64,000 nt of DNA from a virus (taxonomy: Duplodnaviria; Caudoviricetes): positions 128,001 to 192,000 of the IMG/VR virus record IMGVR_UViG_3300048591_000242; one strand, 5' to 3'. Positions 834 through 40,449 of the stretch are shown here, in pieces (the first letter of the stretch is position 1; every line of letters begins with the position of its first letter). The notes below the pieces were generated by a model. It saw nothing but the letters and a program-made list of their open reading frames with translations, did no database searches and was not told the origin of the DNA. The position numbers were made by a program, and so were the translations under genes.

Positions 834-1187
834 ATGGAGCTATATGTGTCTATGAATGCATTAATAGTAAAGTTTGACTCTGATACACAGAGGGAGATCT
901 TTGAAATAATAAACGGTATACTGGAGTACATAGCAGATCCGTTTGGATGTACGCCTGATGACCTGTACGTTCACTGGCTACTAACGCAGATATCACTAGT
1001 TTATAATAAAACTTATATTCCAACCACAACCACAGTACCTACGTTAGAAATGGAAAATACCATAGAAAGTTGCCTGTCATCATACGTTGATGCATTAAGA
1101 CAAATGGTGACGGTACCGGTAGTATTTCCAGATAATTTTACGGTACAAAGAATAGATTCTAATTCTTTGCTAATAAAAGGGGTTTAG
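834..1187 (+). CDS. hypothetical protein
   Basis: 117-aa ORF in a tightly packed co-directional operon. Confidence 0.75.
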   Translation: MELYVSMNALIVKFDSDTQREIFEIINGILEYIADPFGCTPDDLYVHWLLTQISLVYNKTYIPTTTTVPTLEMENTIESCLSSYVDALRQMVTVPVVFPDNFTVQRIDSNSLLIKGV

Positions 1188-3440: not shown

Positions 3441-3752
3441 GTGGCGATAGATATAATAATCAGAGCCGACAACTGGGAAGAGCTAATTGGTGTCATACAC
3501 TGCATCAATTATGCCGATATACCCAGTGACGTATCTATAAGAATGGCCATTTGTAAAGATCTGGAAAAAACCATGAAGGCTTTGTTAAAGGCTAGTGTGG
3601 ATATAGATGATGTATTGTTATCTCATCCAGAAATAGCGATACATTTTAACGAACTTTGGGATAATATACAAGGCTACGGCTATGATATTTCGGATATCAA
3701 GATAATTGATAATTCCGGATCAATTTTAATGCGCATGGGGAGAATTAAATGA
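3441..3752 (+). CDS. hypothetical protein
   Basis: 103-aa ORF, GTG start, ATGA overlap with the next gene. Confidence 0.7.
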   Translation: MAIDIIIRADNWEELIGVIHCINYADIPSDVSIRMAICKDLEKTMKALLKASVDIDDVLLSHPEIAIHFNELWDNIQGYGYDISDIKIIDNSGSILMRMGRIK

Positions 3753-4168
3753 GTCCAATTAGTTTAGAAAACCTTAAGATAGGTGATAACATAATGTTCA
3801 CTACCTATGGTCCGGTTGCAGGTAAGGTAGAGTTTGCAGGTAAGGTAATAGGTTTATCTACAGCAGAATGGTTGCCTGTTACAACTACAGCCCCAACGGA
3901 TCACGTTAACATATATCGTGATTTACCTACTGAGGTACAAGAGTATGTAGAGGATAACTATAGCTCCTATAACTACATAGCAGTTAAAACCATAGACGGC
4001 GTGTTTTACATAGGAGAGCCGTGGATAGTTCTAGGTACACTTGTTTTGGATAATCCGGCCACAGCCACCGTTACCGTTTCTGATTATCGAGAATCTGATA
4101 CAAACCTTTTAACTCAGTTGCTATTATCTAATGGTTTTAAGGTAACTAAAGTAATTGTAAATAATTAA
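3749..4168 (+). CDS. conserved Chimalliviridae core hypothetical protein (phiKZ gp49-like position)
   Basis: Motifs FTTY, H..IY..LP and IG..WI; position just before the polymerase. Confidence 0.7.
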   Translation: MSPISLENLKIGDNIMFTTYGPVAGKVEFAGKVIGLSTAEWLPVTTTAPTDHVNIYRDLPTEVQEYVEDNYSSYNYIAVKTIDGVFYIGEPWIVLGTLVLDNPATATVTVSDYRESDTNLLTQLLLSNGFKVTKVIVNN

Positions 4169-4186
4169 ACGATTTGTAATATATAT

Positions 4187-4490
4187 GTGGAGTTATACTT
4201 TCACGCTGGTGTTTTCGGAGTAGGTCCTCGCTACTCATGTTTCCGACTAAAATCGGTCGCCCCTTTACCAGCGATCTTCTCGCATTCGGGTTTTTTACGT
4301 TTTCTCCCGATACTCCACGTACACGCCAGACCTTCGTGGTTGGGGATCTGGCGTGTACACCTATTTTAAAGGTTTGCGCCCTCGTGCGATACAACGGACT
4401 ACTCTCCGGTTGTTTCTTATGGGCGTTTTGCTAAAGGCTACCATCTATCACTTTACCCTAGCAAAGTGCGGATGGTAGCCTTTTTCTCTA
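4187..4490. ncRNA. candidate structured non-coding RNA 1
   Basis: GC-rich intergenic segment with nested helices: gtggagt/actccac (4187/4318), cgctggt/accagcg, tcggg/cccga, 12-bp gtacacgccaga/tctggcgtgtac, acaac-gga/tcc-gttgt, and a 13-bp terminal hairpin (4433-4483) followed by a T run. Confidence 0.6.
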
Positions 4491-4555
4491 TGCCATATTT
4501 TTTAACAACAAAATATCATTTATATGAGAACAACATCTTAATATAGGAGGATAAC

Positions 4556-4771
4556 ATGAAGATATTTTCAGTAAGAAACATAGTTATACTTCTAAATACA
4601 GTGATAGGTCCAATAACTGATGCCTGCGTAATAGCGCATTGCAACAGCTATATAAACTGGGGGGACTCTAAGCGACACCGATGTCGCGTGGGTCGGAGTA
4701 ACTATAGACGCAGACTGGCACCAGATCGCCACGTGCCATACCGAAGGTGCATCGGGTGTACGTATGGGTAG
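4556..4771 (+). CDS. possible 71-aa peptide overlapping structured RNA 2
   Basis: Strong GGAGG RBS; hydrophobic N-terminal half and Arg/Cys-rich C-terminal half. The 3' part may simply be read through structured RNA. Confidence 0.4.
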   Translation: MKIFSVRNIVILLNTVIGPITDACVIAHCNSYINWGDSKRHRCRVGRSNYRRRLAPDRHVPYRRCIGCTYG

Positions 4772-4820
4772 AATTGCCCCAGTAGATGAAAGTCCTGTTC
4801 TCCGTTACGTAGTCCCGCCA
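4620..4820 (+). ncRNA. candidate structured non-coding RNA 2
   Basis: Helices tgcg/cgca, actgggg/ccccagt, gggact/agtccc, gcgaca-ccga-tgtcgc, cggag(t)aac/gttctccg and tggcac/gtgcca; purine-rich loops; followed by a hairpin at 4840-4868. Confidence 0.55.
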
Positions 4821-4839
4821 AAAAACCTTTATAAGCATG

Positions 4840-4880
4840 GATACTCCTAGGCTGATCCTAGGAGTATCGTACTATGCTGT
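4840..4880 (+). terminator. hairpin plus TATGCTGT motif
   Basis: gatactcctagg-ctgat-cctaggagtatc, then tatgctgt at 4873-4880. Confidence 0.65.
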
Positions 4881-4960
4881 ATTTCCTAATTTAAAACAAT
4901 ATTAGGTAATTCTTTGTAATCAATGCACGTGTCGTTAAAGGACATAATGGGGAAGAACCA

Positions 4961-7292
4961 ATGAGCAATAACCCTTTCATAAGAGATCCGAAGAAATACA
5001 TAAGGGATCTTGATATAATTTCTAACTACTGTGAGAATATGGCGCAGTACTTAGCCATTTCTACTGGGGATAAATACGAAGACGTTCTATTGTGGGTAAA
5101 ATCAAACATCAAACCAGTAGAGCCTAAACTTAAAGTATTAGCCAGAAGAGACGGAGCTGATAGAAAAAAGGAAGTACAGGAATTATCCAAATATTTAAAT
5201 GAGGTATCTCATACTAACAGACTACTAGGGCCTAACCTAATAGTCTATGATAATCCTAAAAAGAATAAGTCTTTTATTTCTGAATTTATAGATAAGGGAT
5301 TAGAGAGGAGATCCATTGTAAAGAAGAAGGGACAGAAGGCTGAGATGGAAGGGGATATGGAAACAGCTATTTTCTGTGACAATCAACAGGGTAGAATAAA
5401 GATTCTAAACAACTCTATCTCGGGCGCACATGCGTCGCCACATAACCCTATTTATAATGCTACAGCGCATACTACACTTACCTCCGTATGTAGGTGTGCT
5501 ACTAGTTATTCTAATGCGGTAGTAGAAAAACTACTTACCGGCAACCGACATTATTATAGTCCGGAAATAGCTCTGGCTGACTTAGCCTCTATTATCAGAA
5601 TAACTGATTTAGATAAGCTAGAGAAAGCAATGGCTAAGTACTCCATAGTGCCACCTACAAAGGAATATGCTTTAGCGCATATTCTAGAGTCTTGTAATTT
5701 GTACTGGAGAAGTCCTACTGGAAACAGACAGCTATCTGAGTTTATAAACGCTATGTCTGACATAGAACTATCTGCTATAACTTACGTATCTGACCTTAAA
5801 GGTATAAGAGATACCAATGATGCCTTCATGCGCAGATTCATAGGCTGTTTGGTGGAAAAGGCCACAGTAGGTATAGATGAGCCTGAGAAGTATCACAAAG
5901 CCGCTGGTGGAGATTTACTGGCTATGGTAGGGTTAGTTATGTCTGAGGAGCTAAAGGGCCGTACGGTGGATAGAATGGCTAAAGAGGACCCAGAGTACTA
6001 CCGACTATATGGTGCTACTATAAAACAGATACTGGATAGCCTGTCCCTGTACACTGACTTTATAGATGCATTCTTGCGTACCGACAACATGCCGCCAGCA
6101 ATTCACACCATAACCTCATCGCTACGACGAGTGGCTATAGTCTCTGACACCGATAGTACTATTTTTACTACTGAAAACTGGGTAAGATGGTACTTAGGAA
6201 AAAATGAGTTTAATGTTAAAGCTATGTCGGTAGCTGGAGCTATAGCTTATATAGACTCACAGGTACTAGCTCATACATTGGCCATGTTATCTAGACATTT
6301 GGGGGTAGGAGACGATCAGTTATTTAGGTTAGCTATGAAGTCTGAGTTCTATCAGCCGGTACTGGGTGTAACTAACATGTCAAAACATTATTTCTCATAC
6401 ATACAGGCATGTGAAGGTAATGTATACTCAGAATTAAAGTTTGATACTAAGGGGGTAAACCTTAAAAACTCCAGGCTGCCTGGGGTAATTAAAACTGAAC
6501 TTAATAACTACATAAGGTGGATTATGGATTCGGTTATGTCTGAAACCAAACCTACCTTACGTGACGTATTAAGAATACCGGCTACTATAGCCCACGATAT
6601 ATCAGCTAGTCTTTCTTCTGGGGATACTAGCTATTTATCACACATGCAAATAAAACCTAAGTCTTCCTATAAGGGAGATAATCCACCAGCATGGGTACAG
6701 TATCAGCTATGGACTAAGGTATTTGCTCCGGTATATGGGCCAGCAGACCCACCCCCGTATTCTGCAGTAAAGGTACCAGTTATTATAGATAGTAGAGCTA
6801 AGATGGATAGTTGGGCTGAGACTTTAGATCCGGCTATGTCTAAAAGACTACGTGAAATGGTAATGGGTGAATACACGTACACTAGTGTTGATGGCTTAGT
6901 TGAACTAAGAGATGGAGATGTGGTTTTATTCATAACCAGAAAAGGAGGTATTTGCGGGGATATGGGTAAGCTGTATACCTATAGAGGTCAAGCCAAGTCT
7001 ATTGATTTAAGTAGCTTAGGATTAAGTGAAGTATCGTCCTCTACCAGAATATGGGAGTATACTGGTTCCACTAGAGAAAGCTTTACTAGTTTTATGGTAC
7101 CTGTATCTAGATTACGTGATGGTAAAATGCCTGTAGAAATAGCGCGTATTGTAGATTCTGCTAAAATTGAAGACGAAATGTTAGCTGGATTTATGATAGC
7201 TCTTGAGACTACTGGGTTCTACATACGTAACTCTGGTAAAACCAGATTACTGTCTAAAGAAATAGATATTGATATTTACAAGGAGAACAAAA

Positions 7293-7300
<8 letters not shown>
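4961..7300 (+). CDS. family B DNA polymerase, palm/thumb part of the split polymerase (phiKZ gp50-like)
   Basis: Motif B IKILNNSISG and motif C SDTDSTIF; partner exonuclease/motif A gene at 51909-53567. Confidence 0.9.
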
Positions 7301-17868: not shown

Positions 17869-17895
17869 TATATTACGGTATAGACACACAACCAC
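17869..17895 (+). promoter_or_regulatory. TATATTAC-N12-CAACCAC element
   Basis: Exact bipartite match, one of four. Confidence 0.7.
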
Positions 17896-23475: not shown

Positions 23476-23502
23476 TATATTACCTACATGTAAACCAACC
23501 AC
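23476..23502 (+). promoter_or_regulatory. TATATTAC-N12-CAACCAC element
   Basis: Exact bipartite match. Confidence 0.7.
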
Positions 23503-28281: not shown

Positions 28282-28308
28282 TATATTACTTAAATGTAAG
28301 ACAACCAC
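28282..28308 (+). promoter_or_regulatory. TATATTAC-N12-CAACCAC element
   Basis: Exact bipartite match. Confidence 0.7.
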
Positions 28309-30465: not shown

Positions 30466-30492
30466 TATATTACCTTTTGAGTATACAACCAC
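30466..30492 (+). promoter_or_regulatory. TATATTAC-N12-CAACCAC element
   Basis: Exact bipartite match. Confidence 0.7.
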
Positions 30493-40284: not shown

Positions 40285-40317
40285 TTTTTATGATGTTGTT
40301 TAGGTATTAGTAAAATA

Positions 40318-40325
40318 TATATTAC
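40318..40325 (+). promoter_or_regulatory. early promoter core TATATTAC
   Basis: Consensus match upstream of the gene at 40450; variants TATATCAC/TATATAAC occur at 11871, 40911, 42461 and 45170. Confidence 0.55.
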
Positions 40326-40449
40326 CTAGATGTATATGCACGCTAGAAAACCTCTAATTTAGCCCACAAGAGGTTTTCTAGTTTTAGCCATACAACCACA
40401 GGCCTTAAAATAAAACGGCTGTAAATGAAAATAAGAAGGAAGCATAAGA

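What the first reader, a model, noticed from the sequence alone, without database searches (positions are those of the whole stretch)
4187..4490. About 300-nt highly structured intergenic RNA of no recognisable family
Seen: the segment is much more GC-rich than its flanks and almost fully pairable. It has a multibranch domain (4187-4318) with two nested helices and three hairpins, a 12-bp hairpin (4319-4359), a hairpin near 4391-4413, and a 13-bp terminal hairpin with a T run. Overlapping ORFs lack an RBS. The T run favours the + strand, while A-rich loops favour the - strand. Inference: a discrete phage ncRNA.
Basis: partly seen in the sequence, partly recalled or inferred. Interest (0 to 1): 0.72.

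Follow-up and report, generated by a model that had tools for sequence, protein, structure and literature searches.

The report
Structured RNA before jumbo-phage DNA polymerase
The GC-rich gap just upstream of the DNA polymerase gene of an uncultured nucleus-forming giant phage carries a heavily folded, non-coding, roughly 300-base RNA element on the gene strand that ends in the phage's own type of transcription terminator; it belongs to no catalogued RNA family and its job is not known.

Summary
Window 4187-4497 is a GC-rich (0.50-0.53), ORF-poor island in a 792-nt gap. The gap lies between the SH3DP gene and the divergent family-B DNA polymerase of a phiKZ-like (Chimalliviridae-type) jumbo phage.

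It is not protein-coding, and no Rfam family matches. The terminal hairpin is a phiKZ-type terminator (hairpin plus TTATKYYGT-like tail), of which this genome has dozens.

The nearest relative (polymerase 73% identical) has the same layout, with many compensatory changes and two conserved apical loops. More distant relatives keep a structured, T-rich stretch plus a long terminator at this position, but with unalignable sequence and variable length.

My best reading is a terminator-delimited structured RNA of the kind reported as ncRNA candidates in phiKZ and 201phi2-1. It is either a 3'UTR product or started at a TATG at 4184-4187. Expression could not be tested.

One lead: the conserved loop GUGGUUG is the exact complement of CAACCAC, a box enriched in this phage's 5'UTRs.

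An earlier, unchecked scan note describes a similar RNA before the polymerase of another phiKZ-like phage.

The parts
3749..4168 (+). Upstream gene: SH3-fold protein associated with phage DNA polymerases (SH3DP). It is the last gene of the + strand operon that runs into the element.
   Evidence: Pfam PF20287, E 1.3e-18; PHROG 3235. The same neighbour is found in all relatives.
4184..4187 (+). TATG, the candidate nvRNAP (phiKZ late-type) start. G4187 would be +1 and is also the first base of helix P1.
   Evidence: Sequence. The phiKZ rule (TATG with G as +1) comes from PMC4666361. The motif is weak: TATATG is only about 2-fold enriched in intergenic DNA here.
4187..4318 (+). 5' multibranch domain. 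It comprises closing helix P1 (4187-4193/4312-4318), P2 (4204-4211/4266-4273), and hairpins at 4218-4236, 4243-4256 and 4286-4310.
   Evidence: MFE and pair probabilities of 0.92-0.99 for P1, P2, P2a and P3. In L004 a closing helix with 5 double changes encloses a differently folded 81-nt domain.
4319..4358 (+). P4: a 12-bp stem plus a 5-bp G.U-rich apical stem and a UGGU loop. The apical block TTCGTGGTTGGGG (4333-4345) is conserved in the nearest relative, and GUGGUUG lies at 4336-4342.
   Evidence: Pair probability 1.00. Against L004: 5 double and 1 single compensatory changes in 11 aligned pairs, with an identical loop. The G.U pairs form only on the + strand.
4359..4416 (+). Three small hairpins: 4359-4373, 4376-4387 and 4388-4416.
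   Evidence: pair probabilities 0.73-0.95. They are not conserved in sequence in L004, which has one 11-bp hairpin here. The single SNP of the near-identical contig L023 falls at 4409.
4422..4497 (+). Terminator T1. It comprises a long hairpin at 4433-4483 (14 + 6 bp, loop ACCCUAGC), the T run 4481-4485, the tail CTATGCCAT (4488-4496), and an outer helix 4422-4426/4490-4494.
   Evidence: The tail matches the published phiKZ terminator motif, a hairpin plus YTTATKYYGT (PMC10914365), at 8 of 10 positions. This genome has 13 copies of TATGCYNTATTT, nearly all directly behind perfect hairpins. Against L004: 2 double changes plus 1 paired indel in the lower stem, and 5 of 5 double changes in the upper stem.
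4176..4185 (-). Exact early-promoter consensus TATATATTAC on the minus strand, pointing away from the element into antisense SH3DP. This is possibly a chance match.
   Evidence: The genome has 14 copies. Thirteen are on the + strand upstream of genes, and this is the only minus-strand one. About 1.6 copies are expected by chance from base composition (my calculation). The site is not conserved in relatives.
4521..4885 (+). Second unit, downstream of T1. It comprises TATATG (4521-4526), a strong RBS, the orphan 71-codon ORF (4556-4771), a GC-rich structured block, a 12-bp hairpin (4840-4868) and TATGCTGTATTT (4873-4884), which together form a second phiKZ-type terminator (T2).
   Evidence: The ORF has no homologue. 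It folds independently of the first element.
4961..7300 (+). Downstream gene: divergent family-B DNA polymerase of phiKZ-like phages.
   Evidence: Pfam PF20286, E 1.8e-190. The best named relatives are below 40% identity, e.g. Vibrio phage vB_pir03 and PhiPA3.

Best explanation
Window 4187-4497 is a non-coding, highly structured RNA element read on the + strand, the same strand as the flanking genes. The host is a phiKZ-like nucleus-forming jumbo phage.

Its 3' end is set by a phiKZ-type intrinsic terminator: a long hairpin, a T run and a TATGCC tail. Its 5' end is one of two things. It is either G4187, the +1 of a TATG start that coincides with the first base of the closing helix P1, or a processing or read-in point of the upstream PhuZ-to-SH3DP operon.

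Either way, the product is a stable, roughly 300-nt folded RNA of the same general kind as the terminator-delimited ncRNA candidates described for phiKZ and 201phi2-1.

Shown here:
- It is not coding.
- It matches no known RNA family.
- It has strong structure, kept by compensatory substitutions in the nearest relative.
- It reads on the + strand.
- The terminator is of the phiKZ type.
- A structured, T-rich stretch plus terminator is conserved at this position, between SH3DP and the polymerase, in ten lineages.

Inferred, not shown:
- The RNA accumulates.
- Its working part is the conserved tip of hairpin P4. Its GUGGUUG would pair with the CAACCAC box found in many 5'UTRs of this phage, changing the translation or stability of those mRNAs.
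For: - **Structure:** z -8.3, and 4th of about 4,000 windows genome-wide.
- **No Rfam family:** none at gathering threshold in the window or in ten related loci, and nothing credible at E <= 10.
- **No tRNA or tmRNA**.
- **No coding signal:**
  - The ORFs differ between relatives.
  - There is no BLASTP match between the minus-strand ORFs.
  - There is no PHROG hit.
  - The 82-aa ORF has no hit among 1.84 billion proteins.
- **Strand:** four lines point to the + strand.
  - The terminator faces +.
  - The tail fits the published phiKZ motif and this genome's own repeated hairpin+TATGCYNTATTT signal.
  - In 9 of 9 lineages the + fold is more stable than the - fold, by 3-28 kcal/mol, and has as many or more G.U pairs (more in 7 of 9).
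  - The P4 apical stem changes C-G to U.G and U.G to U-A, which keeps pairing only on +.
- **Homology of structure** with L004 (polymerase 73% identical):
  - same order of P1 domain, abutting P4, middle hairpins and terminator
  - conserved loops TTCGTGGTTGRGG and TTTAYCCTAGC
  - 17 double compensatory changes and 2 breaks in 40 aligned pairs
- **Position:** structured stretches with z -5.8 to -7.9 lie at the same place in L004, L006 and L026, and shorter ones in six further lineages. PhiPA3 and vB_pir03 also have terminator hairpins there.
- **Known kind:** short structured RNAs bounded by a TSS and a conditional terminator are reported in phiKZ (PMC10914365) and 201phi2-1 (PMC11512511).
- **Loop and box:**
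  - CAACCAC occurs 43 times against 17 expected.
  - It lies within 60 nt upstream of 8 of 200 genes.
  - It ranks 31st of 16,384 7-mers there, and is the top one that is not SD-like, early-promoter-like or A/T-only.
  - It sits exactly 12 nt after four early promoters.
Against: - Expression, transcript ends and abundance are untested.
- No dedicated promoter is demonstrated. TATATG is no more enriched in intergenic DNA than many permutations of the same letters.
- Only one relative (L004/L005, plus the near-identical L023) shares alignable motifs. L006, L024, L026, L030 and the others are structured but not alignable. The 'family' is therefore tiny, and covariation statistics such as R-scape cannot be run.
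- The internal fold of the 5' domain differs between the window and L004.
- The loop-box idea is post hoc. Duplex energies of the P4 tip against all 5'UTRs are no better than for shuffled seeds (13% of shuffles are as good). The box sits at a fixed distance from early promoters, so it could be a promoter or start-site element rather than an RNA target. The box could not be examined in the relative that shares the loop, because only 8.7 kb of that phage is available.
Confidence: 0.55

Rival explanations
1. The element acts only in cis. It is an over-built terminator and insulator, and a 3'-end stabiliser of the upstream early operon. It stops read-through into the polymerase unit and protects the mRNA from 3' exonucleases. 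It has no trans-acting role and no need for a specific fold.
For: A terminator between SH3DP and the polymerase is the one feature shared by all relatives, including PhiPA3 and vB_pir03. The length and sequence of the structured stretch vary freely, from 80 to 320 nt. This fits selection for being structured rather than for one particular fold. No own promoter is shown. Elongated terminator hairpins are stronger terminators in 201phi2-1 (PMC11512511).
Against: A single hairpin suffices for termination and 3' protection, and dozens of this genome's terminators are plain 10-16 bp hairpins. The non-terminator hairpin P4 keeps a 13-nt apical block unchanged while its stem covaries. This points to a specific interaction.
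Confidence: 0.25
2. The element is a conditional-termination leader (attenuator or riboswitch-like). An RNA started near 4187 senses a signal and decides whether transcription reads through T1 into the 71-codon ORF unit and the DNA polymerase gene.
For: The layout is a structured domain, then a terminator, then an RBS and downstream genes. phiKZ has many 5'UTR terminators that show both a short-transcript and a read-through mode (PMC10914365).
Against: No riboswitch or leader family matches. No aptamer-like core is conserved across relatives. No competing antiterminator pairing is seen, and the terminator stem has pair probability 0.99. A second terminator (T2) still lies before the polymerase.
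Confidence: 0.1
3. The functional strand is the minus strand (an antisense or divergent RNA), or the element works as DNA, for example as a replication origin or cruciform next to the polymerase gene.
For: The minus strand folds almost as well in this phage (z -7.45). The minus strand is purine-rich, like the coding strands here. An exact early-promoter consensus lies on the minus strand at 4176-4185. An AT-rich stretch follows the element at 4495-4560.
Against: The minus-strand promoter points away from the element and is not conserved in relatives. In 9 of 9 lineages the + fold is the more stable one, and it depends on G.U pairs. The compensatory changes include G.U intermediates valid only on +. 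Cumulative GC skew shows no turn at this place. No minus-strand terminator motif follows the element.
Confidence: 0.06
4. The element is a small protein gene or the decayed remnant of one, or an intron or mobile ribozyme remnant.
For: Gene callers placed a minus-strand ORF in this gap in three records.
Against: The ORFs are not conserved in position, frame or sequence. They have no homologues. No intron model matches, even at E 10. SH3DP and the polymerase are separate, complete genes in all relatives.
Confidence: 0.03

Closest known systems
Terminator-delimited ncRNA candidates of phiKZ and 201phi2-1. These are 5'UTR-derived and intergenic short RNAs found by ONT-cappable-seq, Grad-seq and dRNA-seq (PMC10914365, PMC11512511).
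   Same: It comes from the same phage group and the same kind of place: an intergenic or leader region of a + strand gene block. It is bounded at the 3' end by the phage's own hairpin+TTATKYYGT terminator. It is structured, has no SD-preceded conserved ORF, and its function is unknown.
   Different: Those RNAs are 71-250 nt with experimentally mapped ends. This one would be about 300 nt with a multibranch domain, its ends are only predicted, and no sequence similarity to any phiKZ-group record was found.
phiKZ-type intrinsic terminator motif: a stem-loop followed by YTTATKYYGT (Putzeys 2024).
   Same: The last 65 nt of the element (4433-4497) are a member in form. There is a hairpin, then a T-rich spacer and CTATGCCAT. 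L004 has an exact TTATGCCGT. The genome has dozens of such sites.
   Different: The hairpin is much longer (51 nt with an internal loop, against 25-35 nt). It is separated from the tail by a T run and carries a conserved apical CCUAGC. The terminator accounts for only the 3' fifth of the element.
Loop-presented antisense regulators, e.g. the C-rich-loop sRNAs RsaE and RNAIII of Gram-positive bacteria, and plasmid CopA- or RNAI-type kissing loops (named from general knowledge, not tested here).
   Same: A short conserved seed is displayed at the tip of a stable stem. A UUCG (YUNR-like) turn lies 5' of the seed. The seed is complementary to a recurrent 5'UTR box close to ribosome-binding sites.
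   Different: There is no evidence of pairing, of targets or of a chaperone. The seed here is G/U-rich, and the proposed target box may instead be a promoter-proximal element.
Large ornate phage and prophage RNAs: GOLLD, ROOL and HEARO (Rfam).
   Same: They are unusually large, intricately folded non-coding RNAs carried by phages, of unknown or recently found function.
   Different: Their covariance models do not match. This element is smaller and far less widely distributed. A true HEARO RNA was found in a relative, but at a different place (L024 536-740).

Membership tests
Any Rfam 15 family | Match to a covariance model at the family's gathering score. | tested here: not met
   There are 0 matches in the window. 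The best sub-threshold hits score 13-20 bits against cut-offs of 40-195. Nothing is found in the homologous gaps of ten related loci.
phiKZ-type intrinsic terminator (3' part only) | A stable stem-loop directly followed by a YTTATKYYGT-like tail, on the strand of the upstream genes. | tested here: met
   The hairpin is at 4433-4483 (pair probability 0.99). The tail TCTATGCCAT matches 8 of 10 motif positions, and L004 has TTATGCCGT. Thirteen TATGCYNTATTT sites lie behind hairpins in this genome.
phiKZ-type intrinsic terminator (3' part only) | Actual termination of phage RNA polymerase. | not testable with these tools
   No RNA data were obtainable.
phiKZ/201phi2-1 terminator-delimited ncRNA candidates | A transcription start a short distance upstream of the terminator, giving a short transcript. 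| tested here: inconclusive
   TATG at 4184-4187 fits the late-promoter rule. However, the motif is common and not specifically enriched in intergenic DNA here.
phiKZ/201phi2-1 terminator-delimited ncRNA candidates | No SD-preceded ORF and no conserved coding potential. | tested here: met
phiKZ/201phi2-1 terminator-delimited ncRNA candidates | Length below about 250 nt, and abundance of the short species. | tested here: not met
   The predicted length is about 300-310 nt (4187 to 4485-4497). Abundance is not testable.
Riboswitch / transcription attenuator | A conserved ligand- or factor-binding core, plus mutually exclusive terminator and antiterminator folds. | tested here: not met
   There is no family match. 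No core is shared across relatives. The terminator stem is essentially the only fold in the ensemble.
Group I / group II intron | A ribozyme core, plus interruption of a single gene. | tested here: not met
   No intron model matches at E <= 10. The flanking genes are separate, complete genes in all relatives.
Trans-acting antisense sRNA | A conserved, accessible seed complementary to target mRNAs, with seed and target covarying. | tested here: inconclusive
   The seed GUGGUUG is conserved in L004 and complementary to the enriched CAACCAC 5'UTR box. Energy-based enrichment is not significant. Covariation with targets could not be examined.

The most novel reading that the evidence does not exclude
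The element is a phage-encoded trans-acting RNA. The conserved tip of its P4 hairpin (UUCGUGGUUG) base-pairs with the CAACCAC box that sits near the 5' end and ribosome-binding site of a dozen or so phage mRNAs. Four of those mRNAs are early transcripts in which the box lies exactly 12 nt after the early promoter. On this reading, a nucleus-forming jumbo phage would use one RNA to switch a whole set of its own messages on or off during the infection programme.
Probability: 0.15. Interest if true: 0.72.

Novelty: new member of a known kind. Interest (0 to 1): 0.45.

Why it matters
Nucleus-forming jumbo phages transcribe with their own polymerases and must sort their RNAs between the phage nucleus and the cytoplasm. 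Their non-coding RNAs are only beginning to be listed, and none has a known function.

This element adds three things:
- It is an unusually large and elaborately folded example, at a position (just before the DNA polymerase gene) where relatives also keep structured RNA.
- It shows that the phiKZ early-promoter consensus and terminator motif extend to a distant marine lineage.
- It offers one concrete, testable idea: a conserved loop complementary to a recurrent 5'UTR box.

If the idea fails, the element is an ordinary structured UTR or terminator region.

Tried and rejected
- **Rfam.** I ran gathering and E <= 10 searches on the window and a gathering-threshold search on ten related loci. Nothing matched at this place.
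- **tRNA/tmRNA.** None was found.
- **DNA similarity to 50,697 phage records.** There was no match.
- **Close relatives in IMG/VR by single protein.** None was found. With an alignment I obtained 15 loci, all at or below 55% identity.
- **JGI metagenome scan with the SH3DP alignment.** This returned only one locus.
- **Two-motif DNA pattern in IMG/VR.** There were 0 hits.
- **Public sequencing runs.** None was listed, and no RNA holder was listed. Read laying therefore could not be used.
Only short blocks are complementary. The two elements fold independently. The best duplex energy is reached by 3% of shuffles, which is marginal, so I did not adopt this reading.
- **TATATG or TATATAG as a general promoter motif.** It is not specifically enriched.
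- **Energy-based target search for the P4 tip.** It is not significant.
- **Replication origin by GC skew.** There is no signal here.
- **Simple terminator scan.** It found nothing, because the hairpin's internal loop exceeds that tool's loop limit.
- **Supplementary tables of the two transcriptome papers.** They are not held, so I could not check whether phiKZ or 201phi2-1 have a mapped RNA before their polymerase genes.
- **Kissing between the P4 loop and the terminator loop.** There are 7 possible pairs in the window. However, the one change in L004's P4 loop breaks a pair, so I rejected this (sequence inspection).

Full report
**Where we are**

The window is bases 128001-192000 of a 202,179-bp IMG/VR virus record with direct terminal repeats. 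The finding lies in a 792-nt gap. On one side is a gene for the SH3-fold protein that accompanies phage DNA polymerases (3749-4168, PF20287). On the other is a divergent family-B DNA polymerase (4961-7300, PF20286, E 1.8e-190).

This polymerase is the phiKZ-group type. The best named relatives are below 40% identical: Vibrio phage vB_pir03, PhiPA3, Psa21 and others. Related metagenomic contigs carry chimallin and tubulin genes nearby. The phage is therefore a distant, uncultured member of the nucleus-forming jumbo phages.

- GC content is 0.50-0.53 across 4200-4400, against 0.24-0.37 in the flanks.
- The + strand of 4180-4500 folds at -117.9 kcal/mol, against -79.9 +/- 4.6 for dinucleotide shuffles (z -8.3). 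The minus strand gives z -7.45.
- In a GC-corrected scan of the whole genome, the region ranks 4th among distinct regions out of about 4,000 overlapping windows for excess folding energy.

**What it is not**

- No Rfam family reaches threshold in the window or in the equivalent gaps of ten relatives, and nothing credible appears at E <= 10.
- There is no tRNA or tmRNA.
- The ORFs that overlap the stretch differ in strand, frame and sequence between relatives.
  - The 82-codon minus-strand ORF, which gene callers sometimes pick, has no BLASTP match to its L004 counterpart.
  - It has no PHROG hit.
  - It has no hit among 1.84 billion representative proteins.
- The two flanking genes are separate, complete genes in every relative, so this is not an intron.
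- Cumulative GC skew follows gene orientation and shows no turn here.

**Strand**

The terminal hairpin (4433-4483) is followed by TTTTTCTCT and then TATGCCAT. Putzeys et al. report that most phiKZ intrinsic terminators share a stem-loop followed by YTTATKYYGT (PMC10914365), and 201phi2-1 has the same motif (PMC11512511).

This genome carries 13 copies of TATGCYNTATTT, almost all directly behind a perfect 10-16 bp hairpin, plus many more looser matches. One of them lies only 390 nt downstream (hairpin 4840-4868, TATGCTGTATTT at 4873-4884). So the 3' end of the element is a standard terminator of this phage group, facing the + strand.

Three further points favour the + strand:
- In all nine lineages examined, the + strand fold is more stable than the minus fold, by 3 to 28 kcal/mol. 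It also has as many or more G.U pairs, more in seven of the nine.
- The sequences are T-rich on + (33-38% T in eight of the nine lineages).
- The single-sided substitutions in the P4 apical stem (C-G to U.G, U.G to U-A) keep pairing only on +.

**Relatives**

Searching with the polymerase and SH3DP proteins gave a small set of metagenomic relatives.

- **L023** is a near-identical 1-kb contig with one substitution, at 4409.
- **L004/L005** (polymerase 73% identical) have a 569-nt gap. Its first 290 nt fold with z -7.9.

Primary sequence in L004 is barely alignable, but the layout is the same:
- A closing helix surrounds a domain of 80-120 nt.
- The P4 hairpin abuts it directly.
- Small hairpins follow.
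- A long terminator hairpin, a T run and TATGCC come last.

Two apical blocks are conserved: TTCGTGGTTGRGG at the tip of P4, and TTTAYCCTAGC at the tip of the terminator hairpin.

Pair by pair, the window compares with L004 as follows:

| Helix | Aligned pairs | Double changes | Single changes | Same | Breaks | Other |
|---|---|---|---|---|---|---|
| P4 lower stem | 11 | 5 | 1 | 3 | 2 | |
| P4 apical stem | 5 | 0 | 2 | 3 | 0 | loop UGGU identical |
| Terminator lower stem | 12 | 2 | 0 | 10 | 0 | 1 paired indel |
| Terminator upper stem | 5 | 5 | 0 | 0 | 0 | |
| P1 | 7 | 5 | 1 | 1 | 0 | |

With two sequences this is not a statistical covariation test. It is nonetheless the pattern expected of a conserved RNA structure.

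More distant relatives all keep a structured, T-rich stretch plus a long terminator hairpin between SH3DP and the polymerase:

| Locus | Structured stretch (nt) | z-score |
|---|---|---|
| L006 | 205 | -5.8 |
| L026 | 290 | -6.7 |
| L030 | 235 | not computed |
| L024 | 165 | not computed |
| L029 | 155 | not computed |
| L008 | 135 | not computed |
| L027 | 125 | not computed |
| L007 | 80 | not computed |

Their sequences cannot be aligned to the window. PhiPA3 and vB_pir03 also have terminator hairpins at this position. What is conserved widely is the position and the structured character. What is conserved narrowly (window plus L004) is a particular fold.

**The 5' end**

phiKZ late promoters are defined by TATG, with the G as +1 (PMC4666361). 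TATATATG ends at 4187, which is exactly the first base of helix P1. A transcript from 4187 to the terminator would therefore have both ends tucked into helices.

Several relatives have TATG, TATAG or CATG just before their first helix. However, TATATG is only about two-fold enriched in intergenic DNA here, and is unremarkable among permutations of its letters. An own promoter is therefore possible but unproven.

No + strand terminator was found upstream within the window. The nearest + strand early promoter lies about 2.7 kb before the window, ahead of the PhuZ gene. Read-in from the upstream operon is therefore expected anyway.

The phiKZ early-promoter consensus TATATATTAC is one of the most over-represented 10-mers of this genome. 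There are 14 copies: 13 on the + strand in front of genes, and one on the minus strand at 4176-4185. That copy points away from the element into antisense SH3DP. It is not conserved in relatives, and about 1.6 such matches are expected by chance. I record it but do not build on it.

**A lead on mechanism**

The heptamer GUGGUUG at the tip of P4 (4336-4342) is the exact complement of CAACCAC.
- The box occurs 43 times in the genome, against 17 expected, mostly on the + strand.
- It lies within 60 nt upstream of 8 of 200 predicted genes.
- It ranks 31st of all 16,384 heptamers there. It is the highest-ranking one that is not Shine-Dalgarno-like, early-promoter-like or pure A/T.
- It sits exactly 12 nt after four early promoters, at window 17867, 23474, 28280 and 30464.
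- One 5'UTR outside the window carries the full 10-nt complement CAACCACGAA.

This would fit a loop-presented antisense regulator acting on a set of phage messages. The caveats are real:
- The match was noticed after the fact.
- A duplex-energy target search is no better than with shuffled seeds.
- The fixed spacing from early promoters suggests the box may be a start-site element.
- The short contig of the one relative that shares the loop contains no informative 5'UTRs.

I give this reading about 15%.

**Neighbouring unit**

Downstream of the terminator lies a second unit. It comprises TATATG at 4521-4526, a strong RBS, an orphan 71-codon ORF (no homologue), a GC-rich structured block (z about -3.5) and a second phiKZ-type terminator.

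Only short complementary blocks exist. The two fold independently when folded together. The best inter-element duplex is matched by 3% of shuffles. I do not adopt that reading.

In L004, L022, L026 and L029 this second slot holds unrelated small ORFs or hairpins. The space between the first terminator and the polymerase therefore looks like a variable slot.

**Verdict**

The element is real, non-coding, structured, and read on the + strand. It belongs to no catalogued family. It is best filed with the terminator-delimited structured RNAs already reported as ncRNA candidates in phiKZ and 201phi2-1, as a large, lineage-restricted example at a positionally conserved site before the polymerase gene.

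Its expression, exact ends and function remain untested. An earlier scan note (e1-5335875, unchecked by me) describes a 300-360-nt folded RNA before the polymerase gene of another uncultured phiKZ-like phage, seen in environmental RNA. I could not retrieve that sequence to test for homology.

Noticed in passing
window 1021-1033, 1939-1945, 17889-17895, 23496-23502, 28302-28308, 30486-30492, 40393-40399 (and others outside the window): A recurrent 5'UTR box, (A)CAACCAC. It has 43 genome copies against 17 expected. It often lies 8-25 nt upstream of the RBS, and sits exactly 12 nt after four TATATATTAC early promoters. It could be a start-site or leader element of this phage's transcripts.
   Followed up: partly
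window 4176-4185 (minus strand): An exact copy of the early-promoter consensus TATATATTAC, on the minus strand. It is the only minus-strand copy of 14 in the genome. It points into antisense SH3DP and overlaps the + strand TATATATG. It is either a chance match or an antisense or divergent start.
   Followed up: partly
window 4521-4885: A second promoter-to-terminator-like unit. It comprises a strong RBS, an orphan 71-codon ORF with no homologue anywhere, a GC-rich structured 3' half, a perfect 12-bp hairpin and TATGCTGTATTT. The equivalent slot in relatives holds unrelated small ORFs.
   Followed up: partly
whole genome; in the window e.g. 10257/10296, 33344, 36348, 44519, 45607/45649, 51200, 57000/57033: Dozens of perfect 10-16 bp hairpins are followed by TATGC(T/C)(G)T. 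Many are bidirectional pairs. They match the published phiKZ terminator motif YTTATKYYGT, so that signal is conserved in this distant marine lineage.
   Followed up: partly
L024 536-740 and 786-2270: A relative of this phage carries a HEARO RNA (RF02033, 123 bits). It is followed by a 494-aa RRXRR+HNH protein, i.e. an IscB-type RNA-guided nuclease element, a few genes upstream of SH3DP.
   Followed up: no
genome 19860-20494 (outside the window; locus L031 160-795): Another 635-nt gene-free, C/A/U-rich stretch with several perfect 13-20 bp hairpins (z -7.8). It has the strongest excess folding in the genome scan. It looks like a series of terminators, but was not analysed further.
   Followed up: no
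window 40316-40400: An early promoter TATATATTAC is followed within about 40 nt by a terminator-like hairpin (aaacctct...agaggtttt). This is a candidate very short early RNA, and the second-strongest hit of the folding scan.
   Followed up: no
window 4457-4464; L004 2064-2071; L006 3869-3874; L026 3100-3105: CUAGC or CCUAGC recurs at or near the tip of the long hairpin before the polymerase gene in four lineages whose stems are otherwise unrelated in sequence. Its meaning is unknown.
   Followed up: no
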